Positions 1 to 16,273 of a stretch of DNA of 16,273 nucleotides are shown here, in pieces (the stretch's first letter is position 1; every line of letters starts with the position of its first letter). The DNA lies in IMG/VR virus record IMGVR_UViG_2802429239_000001, positions 1 through 16,273 of that record; one strand, 5' to 3'. The stretch is from a virus (taxonomy: Duplodnaviria; Heunggongvirae; Uroviricota; Caudoviricetes). The position numbers and the translations under genes were made by a program. The notes below the pieces were generated by a model. That model searched no databases. It saw only the letters and a program-made list of their open reading frames with translations, and had not been told where the DNA came from.

Positions 1-792
1 ATGTCCTTAAATGGAGTCAGTGCTGCGATGCGTGAACGGGTATCGCAGCAGTTAAAGGAAATTGAACGGCGGTATGGTGTGAAAGTGCTGTACGCCTGCG
101 AATCAGGGAGTCGCGGCTGGGGTTTTGCTTCGCCAGACAGCGATTATGATGTGCGTTTTTTGTATGTTCATCCGCTGGAATGGTATCTGCGGGTGGAGTC
201 GCCGCGCGATGTTATCGAACTGCCCATCGACGACGAGTTGGATGTTTCAGGCTGGGAGTGGCGTAAGGCGCTGGGATTATTGAAAGGCGCGAACCCGACG
301 CTGATTGAATGGCTGGACTCACCGGTGGTCTATCAGCAAGACGAAGAAACGATAACGGCGCTAAAAGCGATGACGCCGAAGTGGTTTTCTCCGCTACGTG
401 CGCGCTGGCATTATTATTCGATGGCGCGAAAAAACTTTCGCGGTTATTTGCAGGGCGACGAAGTTCGGCTGAAAAAATACTTTTACGTACTGCGCCCGCT
501 ATTGGCTGTGCGCTGGGTCGAATCGGGTAAAGGTGTGCCGCCAATGCGCTTTGCCGAGCTACTGGCGGGAAGCGAACTTGATGCGCCGTTACGCGCAGAA
601 ATAGACGAATTGCTGGAACGTAAACAGCGCGCAGGAGAAGCGGAATATGGTCCGCGCCGTCCATTGCTACATGCGTTTATTCGTGCAGAACTGGTGCGTG
701 GAGAAATTCCACCGATTTTACCGGACAGCAGAGACGGCGATGTTCGGGAGCTAGATAATTTGCTGTATCAAACAGTATTGCGCCGGGCATAA
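1..792 (+). CDS. Pol-beta-superfamily nucleotidyltransferase, function unknown
   Basis: 263-aa ORF with ATG at 1. N-terminal motif GSRGWGFASPDSDYD fits the G[GS]-x9-13-DxD signature of Pol-beta-type NTases, followed by a helical C-terminal region. Stop codon sits in the loop of the hairpin at 781..801. Confidence 0.6.
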   Translation: MSLNGVSAAMRERVSQQLKEIERRYGVKVLYACESGSRGWGFASPDSDYDVRFLYVHPLEWYLRVESPRDVIELPIDDELDVSGWEWRKALGLLKGANPTLIEWLDSPVVYQQDEETITALKAMTPKWFSPLRARWHYYSMARKNFRGYLQGDEVRLKKYFYVLRPLLAVRWVESGKGVPPMRFAELLAGSELDAPLRAEIDELLERKQRAGEAEYGPRRPLLHAFIRAELVRGEIPPILPDSRDGDVRELDNLLYQTVLRRA

Positions 793-801
793 AGCCCGGC
801 G
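781..801 (+). terminator. Hairpin between convergent genes, likely intrinsic terminator for the NTase gene
   Basis: Perfect 8-bp GC-rich inverted repeat CGCCGGGC / GCCCGGCG with 5-nt loop, followed on the plus strand by TGATTTATT. It lies between the NTase stop (790..792) and the stop of the minus-strand gene (806..808). Confidence 0.4.
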
Positions 802-805
802 TGAT

Positions 806-1261
806 TTATTGCTGGTATTGCCAACTGCTGACTAAAGCGTACAAGTGGTTTGGAGAATAGCGCCAGCTTTCCTTCAGTTGCAGAAATTCAGCACAAAATT
901 CACTGCAAAACAGGCGATCGCGCTGTTCTTTATTACCGGTAATAATTCCTAATGCTCCGCGCCAGTCATATTTCTTGCCATCATGTTTACGGAAAAAAGT
1001 TTCCACATCCTGAAGGCTGGCCTGGAGCGGCAGCATATCCCACTTATCCGCAGGTAACGGCATTATCTTTCCGCGTACACCGCGATCGCGCAGTGATGCA
1101 GAGTAACAAAGGTAACTCTTTTCACCATGCTTAACGGCTAATTCACAGTGGGAATAACTACCGCGTGTGATTTTACGGGTAAGCCAGTCAGCCAGTCGGG
1201 CAATACCAAGGTGTTCTGTTCGGCCCTTATAACAAGCGAGCCAGACAGTGGTTTTACTCAT
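806..1261 (-). CDS. Small protein with possible permuted papain-like (YiiX/YaeF-type) cysteine hydrolase fold; function uncertain
   Basis: 151-aa ORF whose start overlaps the stop of the upstream gene by 4 nt (translational coupling). A His-containing segment (SYSHCELAV) precedes a Cys motif (LFCSEFCAEF), the His-before-Cys order I recall for permuted papain-fold proteins. Family assignment is from memory only. Confidence 0.4.
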   Translation of the reverse strand: MSKTTVWLACYKGRTEHLGIARLADWLTRKITRGSYSHCELAVKHGEKSYLCYSASLRDRGVRGKIMPLPADKWDMLPLQASLQDVETFFRKHDGKKYDWRGALGIITGNKEQRDRLFCSEFCAEFLQLKESWRYSPNHLYALVSSWQYQQ

Positions 1262-1867: not shown

Positions 1868-3421
1868 TCACCATGATATTTTTACAAAGCCATCTGAGCC
1901 GCGTCCGCCGGAAAAAGATGCTGATGTTTGATTATTTGCTGCACTACCACCAGCACCACCGGCACCATAACCAACGGCATTACCTCCGTTAGAAAGGGCT
2001 AAACCAATCCCCCCTAGGCCATATAGTGAATTCATTCCATTCCCACCAGGAGCAGAGTGTTGGTCAACCATGGTATTCCCACTACCGTTTCCACCTGTTC
2101 CCCCGTAAGCTACGCTGTCAGCAAATGATGAGTTCCCGCCTTGCATGCCATCTGAGCCATGAACATTCCAAAGAATACCTCCAGTTGATCCCATCTTTGA
2201 TTCTAATTTTCCCCCTTGACCACCTACACCTCCCGCTCCGACAGTGACAGCGTAATTTGTTCCTGGAATGACTGTGACTATTGATAATTTTGTTTCTCCG
2301 CATTGACCGCCAAAACCCTGTGTACTATATGGAAAACCAGAGTTTCCTTTTGCGTATCCACCGCCACCGCCACCGCCACCGCCACCGAGCATTTCTATAA
2401 AAAGTAAGGACACCCCATCAGGAACAGTAAACGTTCCATTGGTGGTAAAGAACTGGATGTGAGAATTCGTTGACCTACTATATGCAGCACCAGCCTTATC
2501 ATACGCCGCTTTCACCGCACTCGGCGTAGCCGCCTCCGTCGTACTGTTGCTATCCGTCGCATTATTAAGCTTCACAATCCCTTTTTGCGACAGGGTGCCG
2601 TCTGGAACACCCGTAATCTGTCCCCATGGGTGAGTATGGTTTCCCGCAGCCTTACTATTCGCCAGGTCATACGCCGCCTTCACCGCGCTCGGTGTTGCCG
2701 CCTCTGTCGTGCTGGTGCTATCAATCGCGTTACTAAGCTTCACAATCCCTTTTTGCGTCAGCGTACCATCCGGAATATCAGTAATCTGACTCCAGGTATG
2801 ACGATGATTTCGTGCCTCAATCATCGCCGCTTTCACCGCTTTTGGCGTAGCCGCTTTGGTTTCGTCATCACTGTCAGTGGCATTACTTAACTGCGTAAAG
2901 CCTTTTTGCGATAACGTAGCATCAGGGTGATTAGTCGAACGTTCATGTTCATCCAGTTGCGAATCAACATAATCTCGTGTTGCCAGCACAATACTGGGGT
3001 CAACGGTGAGTGTTACCGCTGCCGTGTTGGAAACTTCCATAATGAGACGAATGCAAACTTGCTTACCGCTGCCGCCGGGTAATAGCGGTTTATACGACTC
3101 CGGGAATTTACCGATAGCAATGAGTTCACCGTCAGTATCAAAAACACCGACTTCACGTACATACCAGCCGCCGATATTTTCGGGCAGTACAAGTTCCGCA
3201 ATTAACCAGTTAGGATTATTGGGCGCAACTGTTAATGTATTTAAATCACCTCGCCAGACTTCATGACGTAATTTAGTTTGGCTGACGGTGGGTTCATAAT
3301 ATTGCCCTCCGCTGTCGCCAACAGCCATTTTTTGTAGATGAAGCTGTTTTTTATCCGCCAGAGCATTAGCAATTTTTGCCATCCCTCTGTCGGTGAGTAG
3401 AGTATAAAACTCATTATCCAT
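1868..3421 (-). CDS. Tail fiber protein (P2 gpH / Mu S-like N-terminus, tandem fiber repeats, Gly-rich C-terminal tip)
   Basis: 517 aa. N-terminal 150 aa follow the P2 H-type pattern (MAVGDSGG..., HEVWRGDLN..., IAELVLPENIGGWYVREVGVFDTDGELIA..., ESYKP..., ATRDYVD). Three degenerate ~55-aa repeats follow (TLSQKG[IF]VKL[SN]NA.DS...TEAATP.AVKAAYD). The C-terminal ~180 aa are extremely Gly-rich, including a 10-residue poly-Gly. Confidence 0.9.
   Translation of the reverse strand: MDNEFYTLLTDRGMAKIANALADKKQLHLQKMAVGDSGGQYYEPTVSQTKLRHEVWRGDLNTLTVAPNNPNWLIAELVLPENIGGWYVREVGVFDTDGELIAIGKFPESYKPLLPGGSGKQVCIRLIMEVSNTAAVTLTVDPSIVLATRDYVDSQLDEHERSTNHPDATLSQKGFTQLSNATDSDDETKAATPKAVKAAMIEARNHRHTWSQITDIPDGTLTQKGIVKLSNAIDSTSTTEAATPSAVKAAYDLANSKAAGNHTHPWGQITGVPDGTLSQKGIVKLNNATDSNSTTEAATPSAVKAAYDKAGAAYSRSTNSHIQFFTTNGTFTVPDGVSLLFIEMLGGGGGGGGGGYAKGNSGFPYSTQGFGGQCGETKLSIVTVIPGTNYAVTVGAGGVGGQGGKLESKMGSTGGILWNVHGSDGMQGGNSSFADSVAYGGTGGNGSGNTMVDQHSAPGGNGMNSLYGLGGIGLALSNGGNAVGYGAGGAGGSAANNQTSASFSGGRGSDGFVKISW
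2358..2387 (-). repeat. Perfect hexanucleotide tandem repeat (CCACCG)x5, encoding the poly-Gly run of the tail fiber
   Basis: Plus-strand CCACCG repeated 5 times without interruption; on the coding strand this reads GGTGGC/GGTGGC... giving GGGGGGGGGG. Confidence 0.85.
2464..2914 (-). repeat. Three degenerate tandem repeats (~170-180 bp each) inside the tail fiber gene
   Basis: Long near-identical DNA stretches recur, e.g. AAGCTTCACAATCCCTTTTTGCG and GCCGCCTTCACCGC.CTCGG.GT.GCCGCCTC.GTCGT; they correspond to the protein repeats. Boundaries are approximate. Confidence 0.7.
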
Positions 3422-3423
3422 AA

Positions 3424-4071
3424 TTACTCCGGGTAAATAGATGTAATTTCAAGGCTCCATTGCCCTGTTCCGTAATAGATTGATGTGTTTTGCTGTACTT
3501 CCCGTATCTGGAAAGGTAAAACCGTCGTCAGTTCACCACCATAAAGTGCACAGCCAATAACAGGAATAGCACTTTGGTTAATGATCCAGACAATTAATGC
3601 TTCCAGTTTTGAACGTGTGTTTTTATATTCATGAATGAGTTCTACCAGATTATTGAAAAGGTTTTCATCCATGCCTTTATCCACCAGCTCTATATCAACC
3701 TTAAAAAAATAAGCCTTCCCCCCATATTCAAACCATTCTGAAATAGTTCCTGGTAGCGAAAGTATTTCCAGCACCCGCCGTACCGCCCAAATCGTTCCTT
3801 TATATTTATGCAGCTCAATGGCTTGCTTAATTAACTCGCGCTTCTCCCGTTCATCAGTGGTAAATAACCAACCTTCCAGCCCCTGAACGTGAAATTGTTC
3901 TGCAAGGGCAGGTAATGCCGAAGCATCAACCAGGTCTACCAGATAAACCATCAACGCTGTCAGATCGAGTTGGGCAAAACGCTCGGCAGCGATATTTGCC
4001 AGAGTTGAAAAACGCTCATCGCTGGCAAGCGGCGGTGGCGGCAGCAATTTATCCATCGCTGACTCCGGCAA
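3424..4071 (-). CDS. Baseplate/tail protein, P2 gpI-like (Mu gp48-like)
   Basis: 215 aa. Motifs HKYKGTIWAVRRVLEILS and a C-terminal ...YPE parallel the P2 gpI pattern (HCHKGTIGAIRRVVEPLG ... YPG) as I recall it. Sits between the gpJ-like gene and the tail fiber, as in P2/Mu. Confidence 0.8.
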   Translation of the reverse strand: MPESAMDKLLPPPPLASDERFSTLANIAAERFAQLDLTALMVYLVDLVDASALPALAEQFHVQGLEGWLFTTDEREKRELIKQAIELHKYKGTIWAVRRVLEILSLPGTISEWFEYGGKAYFFKVDIELVDKGMDENLFNNLVELIHEYKNTRSKLEALIVWIINQSAIPVIGCALYGGELTTVLPFQIREVQQNTSIYYGTGQWSLEITSIYPE

Positions 4072-5164
4072 TCGTGACGTCTATCGCGGTGCATTCCGCC
4101 CACTCATGCGCCTGCAAAATACGTTTTGTAGGCATATTCAGCGCAACGTCATAGACACCATCGACTTGTAACACTTTGATTATCTGGTTTGGCACAATGT
4201 CCCGTCCCAGATGTTTCTGCCGCTGTTGCGTCCAGAGGCTAATCGCTTTACGCGCCGCAGCCAGCGTTGTCTCCTGATCGGCAGTGGTAAACAGTGTGAG
4301 CTGCGCACGGATTTCATACGGCACCCTAACGGCGCATTTCGCACTTACTTTGTCGGTCAGCGGACGTTTTTTCTCCTTGCTAACCTCCAGTTCAATTTGC
4401 GCGAGCAGTTCCACGCCCGGCAGACCATTCAGCGTTAGCGGGTAGATCTCCACGCAGCCTTCTGGCAATCCTTCGTCCGGCCCCAGTACCGCGACGTCAA
4501 TAATCGACTGGCTTACGGAAAGCGTATGAAAGCGGTAGGCACCATAGCTGCCCGCATTGCTGAAACTTTCCGGCGCCAGTTGGATCCGCTGGCGTAGTGC
4601 GTCATCACTCTCTTCACCGCAGCCGCCGGTTGAGGCCGTCAGGTTGGTCACGCTGATATCGTAATAACCAATCCTGTCAACAAGGGCGCTAATCTGTGCA
4701 GGCTGCCAGCCATTGCCCGCTTCGCCTGTTGCCAGACTGGTGGCGGGAACGGCGATATGCAAACTTCCCGCCGGAATCAGAACATCTTCATCGGTAGCAA
4801 ACATCACGCTGTCAGAGGCGCTGGCACGTGTTCCTTGTGGAATTAGAATGTTATTTCGATTCTTACTGGCTACCGAAAACAGCAACGTGGTTTTTGCCGG
4901 TTGTGCAGGTAAGCGGTGAACGCCCACCAGCTCACCTAAATAATCCAGCATTGGCGCGCGGGAATACGCGACCAGATTCTGTTTCGCCGCTTCCTGAATG
5001 GCGATGCGTACAAGGTTTTCACGATAGGCAAAAAGGTCAATCAGCAACCGCTCGGCCTGTGCCGGGTAGAGCTTTTTGCCGCTGGCATCTTCATACTGCG
5101 CAATCATCTCGCTGGTAATTTGCGCAGGATCGCGGTCAATAAAATCGGGTTCGGCTATCGCCAT
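4049..5164 (-). CDS. Baseplate assembly protein J (gpJ-like)
   Basis: 371 aa with gpJ-type segments (LRQRIQLAPESFSNAGSYGAYRFHTLSVSQ..., ...GRDIVPNQIIKVLQVDGVYDV...). Overlaps the gpW-like gene upstream and the gpI-like gene downstream. Confidence 0.85.
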   Translation of the reverse strand: MAIAEPDFIDRDPAQITSEMIAQYEDASGKKLYPAQAERLLIDLFAYRENLVRIAIQEAAKQNLVAYSRAPMLDYLGELVGVHRLPAQPAKTTLLFSVASKNRNNILIPQGTRASASDSVMFATDEDVLIPAGSLHIAVPATSLATGEAGNGWQPAQISALVDRIGYYDISVTNLTASTGGCGEESDDALRQRIQLAPESFSNAGSYGAYRFHTLSVSQSIIDVAVLGPDEGLPEGCVEIYPLTLNGLPGVELLAQIELEVSKEKKRPLTDKVSAKCAVRVPYEIRAQLTLFTTADQETTLAAARKAISLWTQQRQKHLGRDIVPNQIIKVLQVDGVYDVALNMPTKRILQAHEWAECTAIDVTIAGVSDG

Positions 5165-5514
5165 AACACCTCCGTTGAGTTGATTACGCCGTCAGCGGCG
5201 CGCCATTGCACACGTAACGTCAGATGTTCCCCGTCGATTACCGGTGTCACCTTCAGCAACCGGCAGCGCGGTTCCCACTGGCGGATGGCCTCTACCGACT
5301 CCCTTACCACATGCGGAATCGCCCGCTCGATGGGATAATCGATGTAGTGCCACAAGTTGCTGCCAAACAGCGGTCTGTGGGGATCACTGCCGCGCGGTGT
5401 GCGCAGAATGATGTGTATTGCCTGGTGAATATCATCCAGTCCGCAGACGTATTCTTCAGGCCGCTGCAAGGCTGGTTGCCAGTGCAGCGTAGAGGGGCGT
5501 GTTGTCGTGTTCAT
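5155..5514 (-). CDS. Baseplate wedge protein, gpW / gp25-like
   Basis: 119 aa; segment LDDIHQAIHIILRTPRGSDPHRPLFGSNLWHYIDYP matches the gpW/gp25 core (cf. P2 W LEHISQSIGDILRTPVGSRVMRRDYGSLLASMIDQP from memory). Confidence 0.8.
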   Translation of the reverse strand: MNTTTRPSTLHWQPALQRPEEYVCGLDDIHQAIHIILRTPRGSDPHRPLFGSNLWHYIDYPIERAIPHVVRESVEAIRQWEPRCRLLKVTPVIDGEHLTLRVQWRAADGVINSTEVLWR

Positions 5515-5575
5515 GAGGGTATTTTCGCCCTGAACAGGCGGCGGGGATATTAAAGCGATTTAAAAAACTGATTGA

Positions 5576-5607
5576 TTAAAAAGAGAAAACCCGCCATCAG
5601 GCGGGTT
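5576..5607 (-). terminator. Intrinsic-terminator-like hairpin plus U-tract between the gpV and gpW genes
   Basis: On the minus-strand transcript, just after the gpV stop (5613..5615): AACCCGCC-UGAU-GGCGGGUU (8-bp GC-rich stem, 4-nt loop) followed directly by UUCUCUUUUU. Confidence 0.55.
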
Positions 5608-5612
5608 AAACG

Positions 5613-6314
5613 TCAGTGTGAATGGTGGTTGGAGTTGCCACCGCTGTCCTGCAATGTGCCGCTGGCCTGAACGTTACCAATCACATTAACATTGCCAGTT
5701 ATCGTGGCGGCGTTGCCGATGCCTCCACTTCCTGCCATGCCACCAAGCCAGGTGAGTTTTTTCATCACCGTGACGTTGCCGGTAAAGGTGCTCATGGGCG
5801 CATCTACCGTCACTGCTGCCGCTTTAACATCGACCTTACTGGCTTCAATGCTGACATCGGTGGCTTTCACATCAACAGTGTCGGAAGTCACGGTGACGTG
5901 TTGGGCTTTAACCTCAACGTTGGGCGATGTCAGGCTGGTACGGTCAATAACCTCAATCACGATTTTTTCGATGCCACCATTAATCGTAAGCTGGTGGGTG
6001 CTGCGGTCATATTCAAACGCTGCGCCATCAGAAAACTGGACATAGCGTTTGTCGCGCGATGCTACTGGCGCGGTATCTACCGTTGAATATACTGCGCCCA
6101 GCACCACGCCATCTTCACCGTTATCATCCAGCAGAACTTCCACCTGTTCGCCCATATCCGGTAGCCAGTAATCCTTATTGTCCTGAGAATTGCGCTGCAG
6201 CACCGCAAGCCAGTTACTCTTCAGATTGTCACACTCTGGTAGCGTGACCCGCACCCGAACGCTGGTTTCGTCAATATCGCTGATAATCCCCGTTTGCCGG
6301 GTTACTCCTTTCAT
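5613..6314 (-). CDS. Baseplate spike/assembly protein V (gpV-like)
   Basis: 233 aa. N-terminal OB-like region with a GEQV motif and the FxDGAxxEYD segment parallels P2 gpV; a repetitive V.V.-rich beta-helix-like section follows; C-terminus ends in a His cluster (NHHSH). Confidence 0.85.
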   Translation of the reverse strand: MKGVTRQTGIISDIDETSVRVRVTLPECDNLKSNWLAVLQRNSQDNKDYWLPDMGEQVEVLLDDNGEDGVVLGAVYSTVDTAPVASRDKRYVQFSDGAAFEYDRSTHQLTINGGIEKIVIEVIDRTSLTSPNVEVKAQHVTVTSDTVDVKATDVSIEASKVDVKAAAVTVDAPMSTFTGNVTVMKKLTWLGGMAGSGGIGNAATITGNVNVIGNVQASGTLQDSGGNSNHHSH

Positions 6315-6323
6315 ATTGCCTCC

Positions 6324-7364
6324 TTACTGGCTGGTCGCTGGCCCGCGTGAAACGTCGATTTCAGTGGTATAGCCGCTGCGCACAAAACTGTGAGTAGATT
6401 TATCAATCAGCCACTGACCGGAAAGCACACCAAAATCGGTTAGCTCGATTTTATTGCCTGCCGTCAGTTCCGGGCAGCCCATCATCCTGAGCGTTCCGGT
6501 TTGTTGATATTCGTTGTGGCTGTCGAGCGCGGCGTTGGCCTTTGCCTGTGCCGCGCCAACGTCCGGCGCCCGACTGTTCAGTTTCAGCGTGTCGGCACTG
6601 GTGCCGACTCCACGGGCAGACGGCTTTTGCTGGCTGTCGTGAGTGTAGATAACCAGTTCTTTTTTCTTACTATTTTGATGCTGTACGGTGGCGTTTTTGT
6701 AGATGCGGTTAATGGTATCTTTGAAGGTGAAATGCGAAACGTCTTTGCGGTCGATCTTTTTCACCGGCGCCAGGCAGCGCAGCGTGGGTAAATGCGAAAA
6801 AATCAGTTCTTTGGTGGTCACCTTTACCGCATAGCCATATTCGCTGGCCAGGCGCTTGAGAAATCCGACATCGGTTTCGCCGTACTGTGTCACCCGGTCA
6901 ATCGTCAGCGGCTCGATTTTGCCCACCAGCGTCAGGCCGTGAGTTTGCGCGATACGGCTGGCGATGGCTGAAAGCGTTGTCTCTTCAAAGCCCTGACTGT
7001 TACGGGTGCGCAGCGCCTGATTGACGGAAGTGGCGATGCCATCAATATTTACCGTGGAAGGTGGTGCTGAAATGTCAATTTTATCAATGATATATTGACC
7101 ACAATCGAGCAGTTTTTCCCCCTGATAACCCATATGTAGCGCCAGCGTATCGCCTTTGCCGGGATACCACTCTTTTATCCAGCGTCCATCGGTGTCATCC
7201 AGTGTGATCGCGATGGTATCCGACTCGTTTTTAATACTGTCCTGGTAACTGATGCTGGTGACATAAGGCGTGATGTCATAAGTGATATCTTTATGCCCAT
7301 ACCACAGGGTAAAAATGGGCGCGAGCGTGGCAAAGACGCCGCCAGTTACGCTTATCTCAGCCAT
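6324..7364 (-). CDS. Tail/baseplate hub protein, gpD-like (Mu gp44-like)
   Basis: 346 aa, in the gpD position immediately upstream of the gpV gene; overall pattern (ITLDDTDG..., tail ...GQWLIDKSTHSF...GYTTEIDV) is consistent with the phage late control gene D family. Confidence 0.8.
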   Translation of the reverse strand: MAEISVTGGVFATLAPIFTLWYGHKDITYDITPYVTSISYQDSIKNESDTIAITLDDTDGRWIKEWYPGKGDTLALHMGYQGEKLLDCGQYIIDKIDISAPPSTVNIDGIATSVNQALRTRNSQGFEETTLSAIASRIAQTHGLTLVGKIEPLTIDRVTQYGETDVGFLKRLASEYGYAVKVTTKELIFSHLPTLRCLAPVKKIDRKDVSHFTFKDTINRIYKNATVQHQNSKKKELVIYTHDSQQKPSARGVGTSADTLKLNSRAPDVGAAQAKANAALDSHNEYQQTGTLRMMGCPELTAGNKIELTDFGVLSGQWLIDKSTHSFVRSGYTTEIDVSRGPATSQ

Positions 7365-7561
7365 GGTGGGATCTCCGATACGGTCTTGTTGACGGTAATG
7401 ACCGGAATAATGAGCTGAATACCGGCAGGCAGTACCGGGTAAATGGCGACATGTGGATTGGCGGCGATAATGCGTTCATAAGCCAGTGCATCACCGTAGT
7501 AATGCCATGCCAGGTTATCCCAGCGTTCGCCGTCGGTGGTGATATGTTCAAGGTATCGCAT
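7352..7561 (-). CDS. Tail protein X (gpX-like, LysM-like fold)
   Basis: 69 aa; GERWDNLAWHYYGDALAYERIIAANPHVAIYPVLPAGIQLIIP parallels P2 gpX (GDTLDAICVRYYGRTEGVVETVLAANPGLAELGAVLPHGTAVELP, from memory). Confidence 0.75.
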   Translation of the reverse strand: MRYLEHITTDGERWDNLAWHYYGDALAYERIIAANPHVAIYPVLPAGIQLIIPVITVNKTVSEIPPWLR

Positions 7562-8514
7562 TACCAGCTCCTCGTAATGGTCGCGGCAGCGAGCTGAGTC
7601 ACTGCGGGAGTGGTTTGCTGTACCGTTGTACGCGCCTGCTCAACCAACGTTGTGGCTTTATCGAAAGTTGCTTCGGCGATGGCGCTGGTGATGCTGCCAA
7701 ACAGTTCTTGTGCATGGTCAACCAGTGTCCCGGCGTCTTTGGCGCAGTCGCGGATACCCGGCAGGCTACCCAGCAATGCTTTAATCTGCGCCGACAACGC
7801 TTTTGGTAATCCTGCCAGCGTTTGCAGATCCATCGGCTGTTTAAACAGGGTTTCGATGGCATCGATAGTCTTTTTCAACGACTTAATTATCTTTTCACAC
7901 TTTTCTTTTAACGCTTTGGCCTCTTTAATCAGTGCTTTGACCTTTGCCACTGTTTTTTTAATATCTTCAATGGATTGCGCCAGTTCATCGAGCATCTCTT
8001 TGGCTTTGCGCATACCTTCTTCAATGGCGTTCAATATCTGATCCAACCAGGACTCCACCTTGTCCGGAAAATCGCTCGCCTTTTCGTCAATATTAGGCTC
8101 CTGGGTGGTAATCGCCGGGGGCAGGAGTGGGTTTTTCGGATCGCCGGTATACTCCTGGAGCGACATTGTTCCGCTTTGGGCAATCACATTGCCCCAGGGA
8201 TCGGTGTGCTGGTGAGTGGCGGTTAACTCTGTAATTACAAACCAGCCGCGATAATCACCGTTGCCAAACACCAGCGCCATTGCTTTGTGGGCAAGCATGG
8301 CTTCACGCAGTCGATTCAGCTCTGTTGTGGGTTGGCAAAACTGGCTGTGCAGGAAAAATTCCAGCGCCAGCATGTCCAGCTTATCGCCAATAAACTGCAC
8401 GCCAGGTTTGCCTTCAATACGGGCATGTGTGGCGTAATCCACGCCCATTGTGCTTTTAAAGCCATCCCAGAATGTGACAACTTTAAATTCAATCTCACCT
8501 AAAACGGCATACAT
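7561..8514 (-). CDS. gpU-like tail protein with long C-terminal coiled-coil extension (Mu gp43 / DNA-circulation-N-like)
   Basis: 317 aa. The N-terminal ~130 aa follow the gpU pattern (MYAVLGEIEF..., FGNGDYRGWFVITELTATHQ). The C-terminal ~150 aa are K/E/A-rich heptad-like helix (EEGMRKAKEMLDELAQSIEDIKKTVAKVKALIKEAKALKEKCEKIIKSLKKTIDAIE). Start overlaps the tape measure stop by 1 nt. Confidence 0.7.
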   Translation of the reverse strand: MYAVLGEIEFKVVTFWDGFKSTMGVDYATHARIEGKPGVQFIGDKLDMLALEFFLHSQFCQPTTELNRLREAMLAHKAMALVFGNGDYRGWFVITELTATHQHTDPWGNVIAQSGTMSLQEYTGDPKNPLLPPAITTQEPNIDEKASDFPDKVESWLDQILNAIEEGMRKAKEMLDELAQSIEDIKKTVAKVKALIKEAKALKEKCEKIIKSLKKTIDAIETLFKQPMDLQTLAGLPKALSAQIKALLGSLPGIRDCAKDAGTLVDHAQELFGSITSAIAEATFDKATTLVEQARTTVQQTTPAVTQLAAATITRSW

Positions 8515-10874
8515 CAGGCATACCCCCGGCGCTGTTGCTGCGCCATTACGTCGTTAATCATTCTTTCCAGTTCGCGTTTACTCATCGTCAATACGTTCTG
8601 AATGTCTTTAGTGGTGTTTTGTCCGTTACCCTGCACGGTAATTTGTGGCGAAAAATTCACCTGGACTTTTCCTGGGGAACGGGAGGGTAGCGTCGCCGGT
8701 TTGGTTACGGATTTACCTGGTAAAGAGGCCGACGCGGGTTTTGCCACTGGCGCCGATGACGGCGTTGTCGTTTTGCTGGATGGCGCGAGTTGTTTGCCCA
8801 CAGGCGGCGTTAAAAGCGCACCGGCAACGCCTGGAACAACGGTCGCGGGGGAGACTGATGCGGTATTAGTCGTGCCTGTAACAGTCGCAGCCGATGCTTC
8901 TGTGCCGATCCCCATTGTGGCTTTTAGCCAGTCTGGCATGGCGTTTTTGACCTGATCAATAATGCCTTTCAGAGCGGGGAAAGCATTCATTATGCCGTCG
9001 GCCAGGCTACCCAGTATATTGCTGCCGAACTCGCTAAAACTCGCAGGCATCTCAACACCAAACCAATTCATCACACCGGAAAAGGCGCTGTAGAACAGCC
9101 CCAGTGGCGACCAGTCGAGAATCAACCGGCTAATACCTGCAATGCCACCGTCAAAGGCCGTGGTAATACGTTTCCAGATGGCGGAAAAGAACCTGGTGAT
9201 AGGTTCCCAGTTGCGATAAATCAGATAAGCCGCGCCCGCAATCGCAGTGATGACCAGACCAATGGGATTCATCAGTAGCACCCGGCCTAGTGAGAGAACG
9301 GTCCGACCAACCAGTTTCAATGCTCCGCTCAGGCCACGACCAAGCAGTTGCGTTAGCCATTTTGCGCCGCCACCCAATGACTTAACCGCCGATAGCACCT
9401 TACTCGCTGCGCCTCCGGGCGCCAGACTTGCCCTGACTTTCAGGAAGATATCGACCAGACGAATAAACGGCGAGGCGATGAAGTTCGCGCCCAGCTTTAA
9501 AACATTCAGCGCACCGTTAAACAGCCAAATCGCCCCGACGATTTTCGCAATGTTTTGCACTAGTGCCGGGTGTTCGCGTAGCCAGGCGCTGAACTGGCGA
9601 ATAACCGGCGCAAGGCTTTGCGCCAGCTCGCCAATCGCCGGCATAAGCTGCAAGCCAATGCTGAGCCATAAATCATTTAACGCCAGTTGTAACGCTTTAG
9701 TCTGTTCAATGGGCGAAGCCATTTGCGCAGAAAAGTCGGCATCAATCAGATTCTTGCTGGTGGCTTGCATGGCAGAGGCTTTTAGCTGGCGATACTCTTC
9801 CATATTCGCCAGCATAGGGGCCAGGAATTCCACCGTTTGCGCATCGCCGAACATTTCGCCCAGATTAAACTGCGTCACCATCGATTGCAGCGCAGTGCTG
9901 CGGGCAGATAAATCTTCAATCTGCATGGTGCGTTTGAAGGTATCGAGGATCGCCGGATTCATCTTCTCAAGCTGCATTTGCACGATATGAGTCATAGCTT
10001 CGCTAACACCCATACCGTTTTGCTGATGCTCAAGCAGAGAACCTTGCAGATCGACGCCCTGGCTGGCGAACCAGCTATCGGTTTTTTTCGAAAAGGTGGT
10101 TTGTAGAAAATGGTCGAAATTCTCCGCCGCTGCACTGGCGCTGGCACCGTTTTTCATGGCGATCTGCATGGTGGCGGTCAGTTCAGCCATACCTTCCAGA
10201 CCCTGAGCGCCGGTTTTACCTGCAAATTTCTCTATCCACTGCGTTTGTTCGGCAATGGCAGGCCCACCGCTTTTGGTAACGCTGTACATCATGTTTTGCG
10301 CAGTGTGGAAATTTTCCGGGGCAATATTCAGTCGATCATGAGTCGCGAGCGCGGCTTTCGCCCATGTTTCGGCGCTGTCGCGCGTGGCGGTGGCGGCTTT
10401 GGCGATCTCCGGCATATAGCGGTTGAGATCCTGCAAGGACGATATGTTGCCTTCAACTAAGGTCAGAGCGGCGGACTGTAACGTGGTCTGCTGCTGGTTA
10501 AAATCCATACTCCAGTCGCGCAGATTCAGGCTGAGCGTCTCGCGAGTGGCATCACTCATCCCACCTTTGGTCGCCATATTGACCATATTGTCCTGAAACT
10601 CATACGGCAACTTCCAGTCGGGGGCTTCAACATTGAATACTTTGCTAAATTGCCCGGCAAATGTTTGGGTTTTCTCCATCAGATTAGCGCGGCTGCGGCT
10701 ATTTTCCTCCAGGCGGAGAGCGGAATCGGCAAGTCGCTGCGTTAGTTTGATAACTGTCGCTTGCTGAGTAGAGAGAGTTAACAATGTTCTGGCGTTGAGT
10801 GAGCCGTAACGGGCTATTGCCTGCGTCAACGTCTCATTACGCGCCTGAAGCTGGGTAATAATATCGTTGGCCAA
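8514..10874 (-). CDS. Tail tape measure protein
   Basis: 786 aa, the largest ORF, located between the chaperone and gpU-like genes. Helical N-terminal half, hydrophobic/Gly-rich central segments and a Pro/Ser/Thr/Ala-rich low-complexity C-terminal region. Apparent TTG start with GAGA-type RBS upstream; the real start could be internal. Confidence 0.85.
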   Translation of the reverse strand: MANDIITQLQARNETLTQAIARYGSLNARTLLTLSTQQATVIKLTQRLADSALRLEENSRSRANLMEKTQTFAGQFSKVFNVEAPDWKLPYEFQDNMVNMATKGGMSDATRETLSLNLRDWSMDFNQQQTTLQSAALTLVEGNISSLQDLNRYMPEIAKAATATRDSAETWAKAALATHDRLNIAPENFHTAQNMMYSVTKSGGPAIAEQTQWIEKFAGKTGAQGLEGMAELTATMQIAMKNGASASAAAENFDHFLQTTFSKKTDSWFASQGVDLQGSLLEHQQNGMGVSEAMTHIVQMQLEKMNPAILDTFKRTMQIEDLSARSTALQSMVTQFNLGEMFGDAQTVEFLAPMLANMEEYRQLKASAMQATSKNLIDADFSAQMASPIEQTKALQLALNDLWLSIGLQLMPAIGELAQSLAPVIRQFSAWLREHPALVQNIAKIVGAIWLFNGALNVLKLGANFIASPFIRLVDIFLKVRASLAPGGAASKVLSAVKSLGGGAKWLTQLLGRGLSGALKLVGRTVLSLGRVLLMNPIGLVITAIAGAAYLIYRNWEPITRFFSAIWKRITTAFDGGIAGISRLILDWSPLGLFYSAFSGVMNWFGVEMPASFSEFGSNILGSLADGIMNAFPALKGIIDQVKNAMPDWLKATMGIGTEASAATVTGTTNTASVSPATVVPGVAGALLTPPVGKQLAPSSKTTTPSSAPVAKPASASLPGKSVTKPATLPSRSPGKVQVNFSPQITVQGNGQNTTKDIQNVLTMSKRELERMINDVMAQQQRRGYA

Positions 10875-11064: not shown

Positions 11065-11382
11065 TCACTGGGCGGAAAGCGAAACCATCTCGCCAGTAAC
11101 GCCATCGCTTGCCATAACAGTGGCGGATTCTGTAGCCACGCTAAGCATGGATTGAAATCGTTTCTGCAATGCCTGGTAATCCAGCAAATCCATTTCAGCT
11201 AAATCTTCTGGCACCAGTCCGGTCATTGCAGCCATTAGCGGTTCATCCCATTCTTCTGGTTTTTCGCTGATCCGGCGCGCGTTGCGCATATCTTTTACTT
11301 TCAGGCGACGTAATTGCAGAGTGTTAATTACGTCTCCCGCCGCTGAAGTAAACGGGAACTGTAAGGTATAATGTTCTTTCAT
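11065..11382 (-). CDS. Tail assembly chaperone (P2 gpE / Mu gp41-like)
   Basis: 105-aa acidic protein encoded between the tube and tape measure genes, the conserved position of the gpG/gpE-type chaperone. Good RBS context. Confidence 0.65.
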   Translation of the reverse strand: MKEHYTLQFPFTSAAGDVINTLQLRRLKVKDMRNARRISEKPEEWDEPLMAAMTGLVPEDLAEMDLLDYQALQKRFQSMLSVATESATVMASDGVTGEMVSLSAQ

Positions 11383-11432: not shown

Positions 11433-11957
11433 TTAGCCACCGATGTTATTGCGATAGGTACTTAATTGATCCACGCCGTTAACGCGGAAAATATTCGCCA
11501 GGTAATCCAGTTCCAGCAGCGTTTCACCATCGACCACCTGTTTAATATAGGTACAACCAAAGGCGCTGCTGAATTCCGGGTTTTCATTCTGTTTAAATGT
11601 TCCCAATGGATTCTTTTTAAACATGACAGTCAAATGAGTGACTAACGCTAATTGATTCGCTTTCCCCTGGGAGTTATAGCAATCAATACTGGAGCGGCAC
11701 TGTAATGCTACCGCCTGCCACGGGTTTGCCGTTTTACGCATGACGTCCTGATAAAAGGAGTTCCATTTAATTTCCCCTTCCAGTTTATCGAAACCTGCCG
11801 GGAGTTCGATTTTGCCGACCATGCCCAGTGCTTTATGCTCCTGCATAATTAAACTGACATCCGGTAATTTAATTTCGGTTGCACGACCTAAAAGGTTATT
11901 ACCATCGAGATAAATATTGGCATTGGTAATACGGTTAATTTGAATTTTTCCAGCCAT
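11433..11957 (-). CDS. Tail tube protein (P2 FII / Mu M-like)
   Basis: 174 aa. N-terminal pattern and the C-terminal NGVDQLSTYRNNIGG parallel the P2 FII C-terminus (..NGVDRLEQHRRNIGL, from memory). Start overlaps the sheath stop by 1 nt. Confidence 0.85.
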   Translation of the reverse strand: MAGKIQINRITNANIYLDGNNLLGRATEIKLPDVSLIMQEHKALGMVGKIELPAGFDKLEGEIKWNSFYQDVMRKTANPWQAVALQCRSSIDCYNSQGKANQLALVTHLTVMFKKNPLGTFKQNENPEFSSAFGCTYIKQVVDGETLLELDYLANIFRVNGVDQLSTYRNNIGG

Positions 11958-13387: not shown

Positions 13388-13568
13388 TTTCCTCTCCGTT
13401 ATTTTGTTCTTCCTGAGTGATGACAGGAGTCAGGTGATTGCGGGCAATCATGGTCATAACCCACTCGTTTTCTTCTGGCAGATCAATTTCACTGTTCGGC
13501 CACAATAAGATTTCTTGTCCGTCGGCAAGGGTGACGCCGCTTGCCGGGCCGTTGTAGATGTATTTCAT
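13371..13568 (-). CDS. Small conserved tail-operon protein, function unknown
   Basis: 65-aa ORF coupled by overlap to both neighbours, in the position of the small protein that precedes the sheath gene in Mu-like tail operons. Confidence 0.45.
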   Translation of the reverse strand: MKYIYNGPASGVTLADGQEILLWPNSEIDLPEENEWVMTMIARNHLTPVITQEEQNNGEEIVHGS

Positions 13569-14020
13569 TCAGTTTCCTCGTAATTAACTTCAGTAAGCAG
13601 GGTAAGGTCCGTGCTTTCCCGTTTTGCGATAAACAGCGATCTGGTCGCCATTTCCATGATGTAGCGGCAGAAACCACCGCTCTCGCCTGCATTGATTTCT
13701 GTTTCAAGCCAAAGAAGACGCTCGCAATCAGGAAGCTGGATCCCCCCCAATGCGCTGCGTATGCGATCCAGTGCGTTTAACGCGCCACAATTTTTGCCAA
13801 CAATAACGGTGGCAGTTAAACGGAGCGTTTGCTGTTGCACGAGGGCATCACTGCTTTCAGGCATGGCAAATAGAGAACCGCTATAATTAATAATCACTGT
13901 AACTTGCTGCGTCTGCGGAATATATTTATTGGCATCAACCGATGAAATAAATACGTCCATTTCGGGATTCTGTTCACGTAATCTGGTCACAACAGAATTA
14001 ATTACAGATAAAATTTCCAT
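13565..14020 (-). CDS. Putative tail completion/terminator-type protein, first gene of the tail operon (positional call)
   Basis: 151-aa ORF with an AAGGAA RBS about 9 nt upstream of the ATG; 4-nt overlap with the next gene. Contains a C7/G7 homopolymer at 13742..13748. Confidence 0.4.
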   Translation of the reverse strand: MEILSVINSVVTRLREQNPEMDVFISSVDANKYIPQTQQVTVIINYSGSLFAMPESSDALVQQQTLRLTATVIVGKNCGALNALDRIRSALGGIQLPDCERLLWLETEINAGESGGFCRYIMEMATRSLFIAKRESTDLTLLTEVNYEETE

Positions 14021-14126
14021 ATAGGGTGTTCCTTAATTACTGCTCACTTCGTTATCGTTGAAATGTATTCTGAAGCAGTGAAGGTGAAGAATCTTTTAAT
14101 GTGATTTAGAGAAAAAATTGAATGGC

Positions 14127-14162
14127 TATAAAAATCCCCACACTTACGTAAAGGTGGGGATG
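14127..14162 (-). terminator. Intrinsic-terminator-like hairpin after the lysis cassette
   Basis: On the minus-strand transcript, a few nt after the stop of the 104-aa gene: AUCCCCAC-(12-nt loop)-GUGGGGAU followed by UUUUUAUAG. Coordinates approximate to 1-2 nt. Confidence 0.5.
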
Positions 14163-14165
14163 TAT

Positions 14166-14480: not shown

Positions 14481-14492
14481 CGGCCCCTCTGA

Positions 14493-15098: not shown

Positions 15099-15100
15099 CA

Positions 15101-15684: not shown

Positions 15685-15704
15685 TACTGTATGCACATAC
15701 AGTA
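15685..15704. promoter_or_regulatory. LexA operator (SOS box)
   Basis: TACTGTATGCACATACAGTA is a perfect palindrome with CTGT-N8-ACAG, differing from the 20-mer consensus TACTGTATATATATACAGTA only in the central positions. Confidence 0.7.
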
Positions 15705-15713: not shown

Positions 15714-15725
15714 ATGATACTCCAG

Positions 15726-15925: not shown

Positions 15926-16273
15926 ATGATACGAAAATCAAAAGAGATGGCCCGGACACCGGAGATCATTAACGACCTGGCGTTTCATGCATCGCAAGTT
16001 CTGATTGAGAGCATCAATCTCGACAGTTCATCGGCGGAAAATGTGGGCTTTGCCATTGCCGACCGAATGATGCGTAACTGGGGTGGGCAAAGCATTTATT
16101 TCCCGAAAGGGATCTCCGGACGGGCGTCGGAGCGTGACTACCAAATCTATAGCGAGTGCGATGGTCGCAACTACGCCGAATTAGCGAAGAAATATAATCT
16201 GACGTTGCAATGGATTTATAAGATAGTGAAACGCGTACATGCGGAAAAGCAACAGCGCCGTAGTAATTCGTAA
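15926..16273 (+). CDS. Mor/C-family transcriptional activator (phage Mu middle/late activator family)
   Basis: 115 aa; GGQSIYFPKG...RDYQIYSECDGRNYAELAKKYNLTLQWIYKIVKR aligns with the Mu Mor C-terminal region (GGGQVYIPRG...RDLRIWNDFNGRNVSELTTRYGVTFNTVYKAIRR, from memory). GGAG RBS 8 nt upstream. Confidence 0.8.
   Translation: MIRKSKEMARTPEIINDLAFHASQVLIESINLDSSSAENVGFAIADRMMRNWGGQSIYFPKGISGRASERDYQIYSECDGRNYAELAKKYNLTLQWIYKIVKRVHAEKQQRRSNS

What the first reader, a model, noticed from the sequence alone, without database searches (positions are those of the whole stretch)
5515..5612. Intrinsic-terminator-like element splitting the tail cluster between gpV and gpW
A GC-rich 8-bp hairpin with a UUCUCUUUUU tail sits directly after the gpV stop, inside an otherwise tightly overlapping operon. 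It would separate a sheath-to-gpV unit from a gpW-to-fiber unit, implying an internal promoter, probably activator-dependent since the sigma70 elements are weak, or regulated read-through in the remaining ~60 bp before the gpW-like gene.
Basis: seen in the sequence. Interest (0 to 1): 0.5.

Follow-up and report, generated by a model that had tools for sequence, protein, structure and literature searches.

The report
Terminator plus Mor-type promoter before gpW
The 98-base gap between two phage-tail genes holds a transcription stop signal followed by a promoter of the kind switched on by the island's own Mor activator, apparently starting the RNA right at the next gene's start codon; this is a tidy but fairly ordinary Mu/P2-style operon boundary.

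Summary
On the minus strand, 5 nt after the gpV-like stop, sits an 8-bp GC-rich hairpin (5607-5588) with the tail TTCTCTTTTT (5587-5578). It folds at -15.3 kcal/mol. Under strict criteria it is the only such site in the window, against 0.03 expected by chance.

The rest of the gap is a promoter built like phage Mu's Mor/C-dependent promoters. It has a 16-bp dyad, TTTAA-ATCGCT-TTAAT (5564-5549), then 22 nt, then a -10 hexamer GAAAAT (5526-5521), and no -35. The gpW ATG (5514) follows 6 nt later, with no Shine-Dalgarno sequence.

This geometry holds in all 53 distinct gpW upstream sequences compared, from Enterobacteriaceae, Pandoraea, Chromobacterium and BcepMu-like phages. A matrix trained on other genera finds a second site upstream of gp37, also preceded by a terminator. 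A Mor-family gene lies in the window.

The window is a tail-only, BcepMu-derived island. Complete phages of this family have the promoter but not the hairpin. Salmonella carries gtrABC in the same gap.

The added prediction is a leaderless gpW mRNA, as annotated for P2 gene V. This is a new member of a known kind, of modest interest.

The parts
5613..6314 (-). gpV-like baseplate spike gene, the last gene of the upstream (gp37/sheath to V) unit
   Evidence: Pfam PF04717 Phage_base_V, 9.6e-08; PHROG baseplate assembly protein
5588..5607 (-). Terminator hairpin AACCCGCC-TGAT-GGCGGGTT, starting 5 nt after the gpV stop
   Evidence: -15.3 kcal/mol. Only strict terminator-like site in the window, 0.03 expected. 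Stem conserved and loop variable in relatives
5578..5587 (-). T-tract TTCTCTTTTT of the terminator; the RNA 3' end is expected here
   Evidence: TTTT directly after the stem is invariant in alignment A1
5565..5578 (-). Conserved A/T-rich block upstream of the promoter, TAATCAATCAGTTT (about -64 to -51). Possibly an alpha-CTD/UP-like contact, as described for Mu Pm -57 to -52
   Evidence: TAATCA is invariant in A1; TTCAA-type block at the same place in Chromobacterium and at the gp37 promoter. The functional analogy comes from PMC4390567 and is inferred
5549..5564 (-). 16-bp imperfect dyad TTTAA-ATCGCT-TTAAT, the predicted binding site of the island's Mor-family activator (about -50 to -35)
   Evidence: A perfect palindrome TTAAAGCGCTTTAA in Salmonella and Pandoraea. 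Same length and same 22-nt distance to the -10 as my placement of the Mor dyad in Mu Pm (AGTAA-AGCCGG-TTAAT, placed by eye; PMC4390567, PMC4287176)
5521..5526 (-). -10 hexamer GAAAAT. There is no -35 (TATCCC at the -35 position matches 2 of 6)
   Evidence: In all 50 matrix-positive upstream sequences the hexamer at this position has A at position 2 and T at position 6. No sigma-70 promoter in the gap
5512..5514 (-). gpW ATG. The predicted transcription start is the A at 5514, giving a leaderless mRNA. No Shine-Dalgarno in ACCCTC (5520-5515)
   Evidence: The -10 to ATG distance is 6 nt in 42 and 7 nt in 8 of the 50 matrix-positive sequences. Inferred, not measured
5155..5514 (-). gpW/gp25-like baseplate wedge gene, the first gene of the W-J-I-fibre unit
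   Evidence: Pfam PF04965, 5e-11; PHROG 43, 3e-34. The gpJ-like gene overlaps its end by 10 nt
14129..14161 (-). Second terminator-like hairpin plus TTTTT, after the lysis-cassette gene 14166-14480
   Evidence: (-16.2 kcal/mol for the folded stretch)
14067..14124 (-). Second promoter with the same motif: TCTAAATCACATTAAA, 22 nt, CAGAAT. It lies upstream of gp37 and has a leader of roughly 40 nt with AAGGA
   Evidence: Matrix score 27.0 bits, against a maximum of 9.4 in 300 shuffles. Conserved in E. coli (30.6) and Salmonella (23.4)
15926..16273 (+). Mor-family transcription activator gene, the presumed activator of both promoters
   Evidence: Pfam PF08765 Mor, 7e-38. 49% identical to BcepMu gp01 and 27% to Mu Mor

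Best explanation
The 98-bp gap is a back-to-back transcription boundary inside a tail-only island derived from a BcepMu-like phage (a phage tail-like bacteriocin or a prophage remnant).

Step 1, inferred from sequence and conservation. RNA polymerase coming from the upstream unit (gp37, sheath, tube, chaperone, tape measure, U, X, D, V) meets a rho-independent terminator 5 nt after the gpV stop and releases the RNA at about 5578-5585.

Step 2, inferred from architecture, recurrence and conservation. A dimer of the island's Mor-family activator binds the 16-bp dyad at 5564-5549. This site replaces a -35 element. The activator recruits sigma-70 RNA polymerase to the -10 hexamer GAAAAT.

Step 3, inferred from geometry only. 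Transcription starts at or next to the A of the gpW ATG, so gpW is translated from a leaderless mRNA. J, I and the fibre genes follow by overlap or tight spacing.

The boundary lets the shaft/hub unit and the wedge/fibre unit be dosed separately. It also keeps upstream transcription from running across the activator-dependent promoter. The promoter is the ancestral part, present in complete BcepMu-like phages with V-W gaps of 45-54 bp. The hairpin is an addition found in the enterobacterial tail-only islands. The segment between the gpV stop and the promoter is a tolerated insertion point: gtrABC in Salmonella, REP-like and ERIC-like elements in Phytobacter and Dryocola, and small ORFs in Pandoraea.
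For: Terminator. The hairpin and T-tract are seen. It is the only strict hit in the window, with 0.03 expected. It is conserved in 11 distinct variants, with an invariant stem core and TTTT and a variable loop. It is single-copy in E. coli genomes, so it is not a dispersed repeat.

Promoter. The gpW upstream regions of 53 distinct sequences from gamma- and beta-proteobacteria and from BcepMu-like phages all carry dyad, 22 nt and xAxxxT hexamer, followed by the ATG after 6 nt in most and 7 nt in a minority, although the intervening 22 nt diverge. A matrix trained without the window or its closest relatives scores this site at 43.8 bits. It finds a second, non-orthologous site upstream of gp37 at 27.0 bits; the maximum in 300 shuffles is 9.4. 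In a 41-kb E. coli locus the top three hits are the three island operon starts. In BcepMu the top hits precede gpW and the Mu I-equivalent protease, and the fourth-ranked hit (a score within the null range) precedes the holin.

Activator. A Mor gene is present and is 49% identical to the single Mor/C activator of BcepMu.

Published architecture of Mor/C promoters: a 16-bp dyad at -51 to -36, a -10 and no -35 (PMC4390567, PMC2582627, PMC4287176). By my placement, Mu Pm has the same 22-nt spacing. The Mu record annotates terminators directly before or within Pm, Plys and PI.

Leaderless precedent: the P2 record places the V-operon transcription start on the first base of the gene V coding sequence.
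Against: There are no transcript data, so neither the 3' end nor the 5' end has been observed. The only dRNA-seq set examined (uninduced B. cenocepacia J2315, which carries BcepMu) lists no start for gpW or for the other late operon starts I searched, so it is uninformative.

The hairpin stem shows no compensatory changes because its core never varies, so its structure is not proven by covariation. Salmonella and complete phages lack the hairpin, so termination is not essential to the family.

The matrix was trained on sequences related by descent. Mu's own promoters do not score with it. The third site, upstream of the holin, is within the null range in this window (0.5 bits). Activator specificity is assumed, not shown.
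Confidence: 0.72

Rival explanations
1. The promoter is real, but gpW mRNA has a leader. Transcription would start further upstream, or most gpW would be made from read-through RNA, with translation initiating without a Shine-Dalgarno sequence by another route such as S1-dependent binding or re-initiation.
For: The transcription start is only inferred from the distance between the -10 and the ATG. Complete phages lack the terminator, so read-through RNA carrying an internal gpW start must exist there. Eight of the 50 matrix-positive sequences have 7 nt instead of 6.
Against: The -10 to ATG distance is held at 6-7 nt across genera with very different G+C content, while the 6 nt themselves vary freely. 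Only 2 of the 50 matrix-positive sequences have any Shine-Dalgarno-like tetramer. By contrast, the gp37 promoter of the same island has a normal leader with AAGGA. P2 gene V gives a precedent for a leaderless baseplate operon.
Confidence: 0.25
2. The hairpin does not terminate transcription. It would be a 3'-end stabiliser or processing barrier, or simply the relic of a past insertion or deletion at a recombination-prone junction, and the tail cluster would be transcribed as one unit.
For: The junction is an insertion point: gtrABC flanked by REP-like repeats in Salmonella, and REP-like and ERIC-like inserts in L004 and L005. Phages of the family do without the hairpin. There is no covariation in the stem.
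Against: It has a canonical stem plus a run of 8 T in 10. It is on the coding strand 5 nt after the stop, and only 0.03 such sites are expected by chance. Stem and T-tract are invariant while loop and flanks vary across genera. L005 has lost the right arm of the hairpin but carries a different hairpin plus T-tract in the same gap, and L004's longer stem is still followed by the T-run. A second hairpin-promoter pair occurs upstream of gp37, and Mu has the same layout.
Confidence: 0.12
3. The dyad is not a Mor site. It would be the operator of another regulator, or a conserved DNA or RNA element unrelated to transcription initiation, and gpW would be driven by a different promoter.
For: No binding data exist. 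Mu promoters do not score with the matrix. A/T-rich palindromes can arise for other reasons.
Against: The dyad keeps a fixed 22-nt distance to a hexamer that has A at position 2 and T at position 6 in all 50 matrix-positive sequences. It recurs at other operon starts in the island and in BcepMu. It is found only in elements that encode a Mor/C activator, and its architecture matches the published one (PMC4390567, PMC2582627).
Confidence: 0.06

Closest known systems
Phage Mu middle and late promoters (Pm, Plys, PI, PP, Pmom), activated by Mor and C
   Same: A sigma-70 promoter with a -10 but no -35. A 16-bp imperfect dyad with 5-bp arms and a 6-bp spacer, centred about 43 bp upstream of the start. 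By my placement of the dyad, Mu Pm has the same 22-nt gap to the -10. The activator belongs to the same Pfam family and is encoded in the element. Terminators are annotated directly before or within Pm, Plys and PI. One promoter (PP) is internal to the tail and baseplate genes.
   Different: The box sequence differs, and Mu promoters do not score with the matrix built here. The island and BcepMu have one activator rather than the Mor-then-C cascade. The internal tail promoter lies between V and W, not inside gene N upstream of P. Mu's late genes carry annotated ribosome-binding sites, whereas gpW here has none.
Phage P2 late promoter PV (V-W-J-I-H-G operon)
   Same: An activator-dependent late promoter starting the baseplate/fibre operon. 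The transcription start is annotated on the first base of the first gene, so the mRNA is leaderless. It is preceded by a terminator of the previous operon and by a non-essential inserted gene (orf30). The tail gene families are homologous (V, W, J, I, H).
   Different: The P2 record annotates a 28-bp activator binding site about 40-70 bp upstream of the start. From background knowledge the activator is the zinc-finger protein Ogr, unrelated to Mor. The boundary lies one gene earlier, before V. The gene order of the two tail operons also differs.
BcepMu-like phages (Bcepmuvirus: BcepMu, phiE255, Escherichia phage PhiKM)
   Same: Same gene order from sheath to fibre, with 60-70% identical gpW. 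The same dyad, 22 nt, -10, 6 nt and ATG arrangement precedes gpW.
   Different: These are complete phages with head and transposition genes. Their V-W gap is only 53-54 bp, so it holds the promoter alone with no hairpin. I found no published description of their late promoters in the searchable library.
Moron insertion points in phage late operons (promoter-gene-terminator cassettes between structural genes)
   Same: The segment between the gpV stop and the promoter takes up foreign DNA in relatives: gtrABC in Salmonella, small ORFs in Pandoraea and repeat elements in other Enterobacteriaceae.
   Different: In this window no cargo gene is present. The gap holds only the two signals.

Membership tests
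Rho-independent (intrinsic) terminator | G+C-rich stem-loop with a short loop, on the transcribed strand downstream of a stop codon | tested here: met
   8-bp stem with 6 G-C pairs and a 4-nt loop, 5 nt after the TGA, -15.3 kcal/mol
Rho-independent (intrinsic) terminator | Run of U immediately 3' of the stem | tested here: met
   TTCTCTTTTT, 8 T in 10. Counting the two stem-closing T, this is TTTT then CTCTTTTT
Rho-independent (intrinsic) terminator | Rarer than chance and conserved in relatives | tested here: met
   0.03 expected per window under strict criteria. Stem core and TTTT are invariant and the loop is variable in 11 distinct variants. Absent in Salmonella and in complete phages
Rho-independent (intrinsic) terminator | Base pairs supported by compensatory changes | tested here: inconclusive
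   The core pairs never vary. Only the outermost and the loop-closing positions change
Rho-independent (intrinsic) terminator | RNA 3' ends form in the U-tract | not testable with these tools
   Needs Term-seq or in-vitro transcription
Mor/C-dependent promoter (Mu type) | A Mor/C-family activator is encoded in the same element | tested here: met
   15926-16273(+), Pfam PF08765, 7e-38
Mor/C-dependent promoter (Mu type) | 16-bp imperfect dyad with 5-bp inverted arms and a 6-bp spacer | tested here: met
   TTTAA-ATCGCT-TTAAT, arms matching 4 of 5. A perfect 14-bp palindrome in Salmonella and Pandoraea. Definition from PMC4390567
Mor/C-dependent promoter (Mu type) | Dyad centred at about -43.5, overlapping the -35 position; recognisable -10; no -35 | tested here: met
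   22 nt between dyad and -10, as I place it in Mu Pm. This puts the centre at -42.5 if the start is the A of the ATG. The -35 position matches 2 of 6. No sigma-70 promoter was called. The start site itself is inferred
Mor/C-dependent promoter (Mu type) | The same motif at the other activator-controlled operon starts of the element | tested here: met
   gp37 promoter at 27.0 bits against a shuffle maximum of 9.4. The holin site is weak (0.5 bits here, 10.0 in E. coli). In BcepMu, the sites before gpW and gp32 rank first and second; the holin site ranks fourth with a score in the null range
Mor/C-dependent promoter (Mu type) | Activator binds the dyad and transcription depends on it | not testable with these tools
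   Needs gel-shift or footprinting and reporter assays
Leaderless mRNA (lambda cI from PRM, P2 gene V) | Transcription starts on the A of an AUG start codon | not testable with these tools
   Only predicted: the -10 hexamer ends 6 nt (42 sequences) or 7 nt (8 sequences) before the ATG
Leaderless mRNA (lambda cI from PRM, P2 gene V) | No Shine-Dalgarno sequence upstream, and ATG rather than GTG or TTG as start | tested here: met
   2 of 50 sequences have any Shine-Dalgarno-like tetramer. An ATG is present at the expected position in every locus, but the script searched only for ATG, so this point is partly by construction

The most novel reading that the evidence does not exclude
Across BcepMu-like phages and the tail-only islands derived from them in beta- and gamma-proteobacteria, the baseplate-wedge/fibre operon would be expressed only as a leaderless mRNA, starting at the gpW AUG from a Mor-type activator-dependent promoter. 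This would be a second, independent case of the arrangement annotated for P2 gene V. In the domesticated enterobacterial islands, the added terminator would act as an insulator. Wedge and fibre proteins would then be made only from the leaderless transcript and never from read-through RNA, in which the gpW start has no ribosome-binding site.
Probability: 0.45. Interest if true: 0.5.

Novelty: new member of a known kind. Interest (0 to 1): 0.35.

Why it matters
It gives a concrete, testable regulatory map for a widespread but unstudied tail-only island. The island is found in 197 of 5426 complete E. coli genomes, in Salmonella as STM4198-4219, and in Phytobacter, Superficieibacter and other genera.

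The proposed map is a chain. A LexA box lies next to a Mor gene, which suggests induction by DNA damage (this first link is conjecture). Mor would then switch on two strong Mor-box promoters, each behind a terminator.

It also proposes the late-promoter motif of the BcepMu phage group, for which I found no published description.

It suggests that a leaderless start of the baseplate operon recurs in two unrelated activator systems, Ogr in P2 and Mor here. That is of interest to people who study leaderless translation and phage late-gene dosing.

Finally, it explains why gtrABC, an O-antigen modification operon in Salmonella, sits exactly at this junction. For anyone engineering these particles as antibacterials, the boundary marks where fibre and wedge expression can be controlled separately.

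Tried and rejected
- Rfam at gathering threshold over the whole window found nothing, so no known RNA family explains the gap.
- The sigma-70 scan finds no promoter in the gap. This fits activator dependence and argues against a constitutive internal promoter.
- Dispersed-repeat idea for the hairpin: rejected. The region is single-copy in every E. coli genome that has it, and the hairpin does not look like the REP-type palindromes seen in Salmonella and Phytobacter (judged by eye from background knowledge).
- Covariation test of the stem: the alignment shows an invariant core, so a pair-count test would say nothing. I did not run it.
- The matrix does not pick up Mu's own promoters. The similarity to Mu Pm rests on architecture and on a by-eye comparison of the dyad.
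- Experimental start sites: the dRNA-seq tables for B. cenocepacia J2315, which carries BcepMu, list no start for gpW (BCAS0508 by my coordinate inference) or for the neighbouring late-gene tags I searched. They list only an internal start in V. The cells were not induced, so this is uninformative.
- Literature on the Salmonella locus tags STM4200-4219 and on BcepMu promoters gave nothing on regulation. I could not find a paper in the library stating that P2 gene V mRNA is leaderless, so I rely on the GenBank annotation.
- The small ORF 15484-15609(-) downstream of the LexA box was rejected as a gene, because its ATG is not conserved in E. coli.
- ORF 5224-5553(+), which overlaps the gap on the other strand, was treated as spurious. 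It lies antisense to gpW, and no feature is annotated there in E. coli.

Full report
**1. What is in the sequence**

All genes of the cluster run on the minus strand. Pfam and PHROG searches give the following order in the direction of transcription:
- holin (15101-15388), SLT transglycosylase (14493-15197) and a small membrane protein (14166-14480);
- Gp37-family protein (13565-14020) and a 65-aa ORF;
- sheath (11957-13387), tube (11433-11957), tail assembly chaperone (11065-11382) and tape measure (8514-10874);
- gpU (7561-8514), gpX (7352-7561), gpD (6324-7364) and gpV (5613-6314);
- the 98-bp gap;
- gpW (5155-5514), gpJ (4049-5164), gpI (3424-4071), a tail fibre (1868-3421) and two small genes downstream of the fibre (1258-1863, a DUF4376 protein, and 806-1261, no family match).

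A Mor-family activator gene (15926-16273, Pfam 7e-38) is transcribed divergently.

In the gap, read on the minus strand, the elements follow one another directly:
- TGA stop (5615-5613) and 5 nt;
- AACCCGCC-TGAT-GGCGGGTT (5607-5588);
- TTCTCTTTTT (5587-5578);
- 64 nt up to the gpW ATG at 5514.

The hairpin folds at -15.3 kcal/mol.

**2. Is it more than chance?**

The loose scan finds terminator-like sites at the background rate, 21 against 18.7 expected. I then applied strict criteria: a perfect stem of at least 7 bp with at least 5 G-C pairs, a loop of 3-8, and at least 7 T in the next 10 bases. Under these, this is the only site on either strand of the window. Only 3% of 300 dinucleotide shuffles contain any such site. 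It lies on the coding strand, directly after a stop codon, in one of the few real gaps of the cluster.

**3. Genomic context**

Close relatives (93-95% identity) occur once per genome in 197 of 5426 complete E. coli genomes. In E. coli KK19-02 the cluster lies between yjbD/rluF and lysC. It contains lysis genes, tail genes and Mor, but no head, replication or transposition genes. It is therefore a tail-only island, either a phage tail-like bacteriocin or a prophage remnant.

The same island in Salmonella is STM4198-STM4219. The nearest complete phages are BcepMu-like: BcepMu, phiE255 and Escherichia phage PhiKM have gpW 60-70% identical. The island's Mor is 49% identical to BcepMu gp01, the only Mor/C-type activator of that phage, and 27% identical to Mu Mor.

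**4. The gap in relatives**

I compared the gpW upstream region in 94 loci. These came from GTDB genomes, IMG/VR contigs and phage records.

A gpV-like gene could be located upstream of gpW in 56 of these loci. In those, V and W never overlap, and the gap ranges from 45 bp to 3.5 kb.

Salmonella carries the O-antigen glucosylation operon gtrABC (STM4204-4206) exactly between V and W. The operon is flanked by direct copies of a REP-like palindrome. Nucleotide similarity to the window resumes at about 5576, which is at the promoter. One Salmonella-type contig (L049) has the REP-like element without gtr.

Phytobacter has a REP-like insert inside the hairpin. Dryocola has an ERIC-like insert plus a different hairpin and T-tract. 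Pandoraea prophages carry a small ORF in the gap.

All of these insertions lie between the gpV stop and the conserved promoter block.

**5. Conservation of the hairpin**

I aligned 11 distinct variants from the enterobacterial islands, with gaps of 97-103 bp. The stem core CCCGCC/GGCGGG and the following TTTT are invariant. The five loop columns and the flanks vary freely: TGAT, GCAAC, GTCAC, GTAAT, ATTCA, GCTAA, ATTAA and GCAAT.

This is the pattern expected of a working terminator. Because the core never varies, however, there is no covariation proof.

Complete BcepMu-like phages have V-W gaps of only 45-54 bp and no hairpin. Salmonella also lacks the right arm and the T-tract. The hairpin is therefore specific to the non-Salmonella enterobacterial islands.

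**6. The promoter**

The 64 nt upstream of gpW contain the following:
- TAATCAATCAGTTT;
- the 16-bp dyad TTTAA-ATCGCT-TTAAT (5564-5549);
- 22 nt;
- GAAAAT (5526-5521);
- ACCCTC;
- ATG.

The dyad is a perfect palindrome, TTAAAGCGCTTTAA, in Salmonella and Pandoraea.

Published work defines Mor- and C-dependent promoters of phage Mu by three features (PMC4390567, PMC4287176, PMC2582627):
- a 16-bp imperfect dyad with 5-bp inverted arms and a G/C-rich 6-bp spacer, at -51 to -36 and centred at -43.5;
- a recognisable -10;
- no -35.

Reading the Mu genome record, I placed the Pm dyad by eye as AGTAA-AGCCGG-TTAAT, followed 22 nt later by TATCCT. That is the same spacing as here.

Here the -35 position reads TATCCC, a 2-of-6 match, and the sigma-70 scan calls nothing in the gap.

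**7. Independent support for the motif**

I built a 58-column weight matrix from gpW upstream regions of other genera. The window, E. coli and the 99%-identical contig were excluded from training.

| Sequence scanned | Site | Score (bits) |
|---|---|---|
| Window | this gap, 5578-5521(-) | 43.8 |
| Window | 14124-14067(-), upstream of gp37 | 27.0 |
| Window | next best, upstream of the holin | 0.5 |
| 300 dinucleotide shuffles of the window | best score | mean -4.5, maximum 9.4 |
| E. coli locus, 41 kb | gpW, gp37 and holin promoters (top three hits) | 40.1, 30.6, 10.0 |
| Salmonella | gp37 site | 23.4 |
| BcepMu | before gpW | 37.8 |
| BcepMu | before gp32, the Mu I-equivalent protease (GATGAT, 7 nt, ATG) | 12.0 |
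| BcepMu | before the holin (ranks fourth; within the null range) | -6.2 |

The gp37 site is not orthologous to the gpW site. It has the same 22-nt spacing to a CAGAAT hexamer. It is itself preceded by a second hairpin and T-tract (14161-14129; -16.2 kcal/mol for the folded stretch).

The Mu record likewise annotates predicted terminators directly before or within Pm, Plys and PI. A terminator followed by a Mor/C promoter is thus the usual Mu layout.

**8. Predicted leaderless start**

There are 53 distinct upstream sequences.
- 50 score positively with the matrix. In all 50 the hexamer has A at position 2 and T at position 6.
- The hexamer ends 6 nt before the ATG in 42 of the 50, and 7 nt before it in 8.
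- Only 2 of the 50 carry any Shine-Dalgarno-like tetramer.
- The three low scorers show the same layout by eye.

The six intervening bases vary freely: ACCCTC, AGCCGC, GACGCC, GTAGCC and others.

A start site normally lies about 7 nt after a -10 hexamer. This points to initiation at the A of the ATG, so that gpW would be translated from a leaderless mRNA.

The gp37 promoter of the same island has an ordinary leader with AAGGA, so the lack of a leader is specific to gpW.

There is a precedent. The P2 genome record places the transcription start of the V-W-J-I-H-G operon on the first base of the gene V coding sequence. That start lies downstream of an activator binding site, a non-essential inserted gene and the terminator of the previous operon.

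This step is inference from geometry. No start site has been measured.

**9. Mechanism proposed**

Transcription of the gp37/sheath-to-V unit ends at the hairpin. The Mor-family activator binds the dyad and recruits RNA polymerase to GAAAAT. The W-J-I-fibre unit is then made from an RNA that begins at the gpW AUG.

The whole 98 bp is used: 5 nt, a 20-nt hairpin, a 10-nt T-tract and 64 nt of promoter, with an overlap of one base. No room is left for a separate read-through control element.

Because a read-through RNA would present gpW without a ribosome-binding site, the terminator may also ensure that wedge and fibre proteins come only from the leaderless transcript. That last point is speculation.

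**10. Comparison with known systems and novelty**

The boundary works like a Mu Pm, Plys or PI junction, and its downstream half works like P2 PV. It meets every sequence-level criterion of a Mor/C-type promoter and of an intrinsic terminator that could be tested here. Binding, activation, RNA 3' ends and RNA 5' ends could not be tested.

I found no description of late promoters for BcepMu-like phages, or of regulation of this island, in the searchable literature. The founding BcepMu paper is not in the library, so prior description cannot be excluded.

I rate it a new member of a known kind. It is useful as a regulatory map and as a second candidate for a leaderless baseplate operon, but it is not surprising to a specialist.

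**11. Attempts at experimental data**

Start-site tables from dRNA-seq of uninduced B. cenocepacia J2315, which carries BcepMu, list no start for gpW or for the other late-gene tags I searched. They list only an internal start in V. Late genes are silent under those conditions, so this neither supports nor refutes the model.

Noticed in passing
window 15685-15704: A perfect LexA (SOS) box, TACTGTATGCACATACAGTA, lies in the ~540-bp A/T-rich gap between the holin gene and the divergent Mor gene. None is expected by chance. It is conserved in E. coli. It overlaps a sigma-70-like TTTACA-16-TACAGT promoter on the minus strand (15713-15686). This suggests that the island is induced by DNA damage, but which strand's promoter it controls is unresolved.
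   Followed up: partly
whole window; L001 (E. coli KK19-02) 13553-31131: The cluster is a tail-only island: lysis cassette, tail genes and Mor, with no head, replication or transposition genes. It sits between yjbD/rluF and lysC. It is present in 197 of 5426 complete E. coli genomes and in Salmonella as STM4198-4219. It looks like a phage tail-like bacteriocin derived from a BcepMu-like phage. I found no paper describing it as such.
   Followed up: partly
L002 (Salmonella Infantis) 12416-15740: The gtrABC O-antigen glucosylation operon (STM4204-4206) is inserted exactly in the V-W gap. It is flanked by direct copies of a REP-like palindrome (GGCCCGGTAAGCGCAGAAGCGCCACCGGGC). Contig L049 has the REP-like element without gtr, which could be an empty site or a precise loss.
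   Followed up: partly
window 14067-14161: A second hairpin/T-tract plus Mor-box promoter pair lies upstream of gp37. In BcepMu, gp37 sits deep inside the head-tail operon. This promoter may therefore be the former head-operon promoter, brought next to gp37 when the head genes were deleted.
   Followed up: partly
L048 (IMGVR_UViG_3300050189_000002) about 50-481: This 'viral contig' carries the gpW gene directly behind a lac operator and AAGAAGGAGATATACC-ATG, the upstream region of a pET-type expression vector. It appears to be a cloned construct rather than a natural sequence.
   Followed up: no
L003 (JAEZCC010000043.1, labelled 'MAG: Bacillota bacterium'): A 6.7-kb contig with gpW 99% and gpV 96% identical to the window is binned as Bacillota. 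It is almost certainly an enterobacterial contig that was mis-binned.
   Followed up: no
L025 (BcepMu) 18797-18862: The predicted BcepMu promoter before gp32 (the Mu I-equivalent protease) has GATGAT, then 7 nt, then ATG, with no Shine-Dalgarno sequence. A second late operon of that phage may also start leaderless.
   Followed up: no
L017-L019 (Chromobacterium) 2650-6000: About 3.4 kb lies between the V-like gene and gpW. It includes a 623-aa ORF, possibly fibre-related (judged by eye, not searched), and a 242-aa ORF. Even so, the Mor-box promoter directly precedes gpW.
   Followed up: no
window 777-805: A strong 12-bp hairpin (8 G-C pairs) lies between the convergent genes 1-792(+) and 806-1261(-). 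It is likely the terminator that closes the tail cluster and the neighbouring nucleotidyltransferase gene.
   Followed up: no
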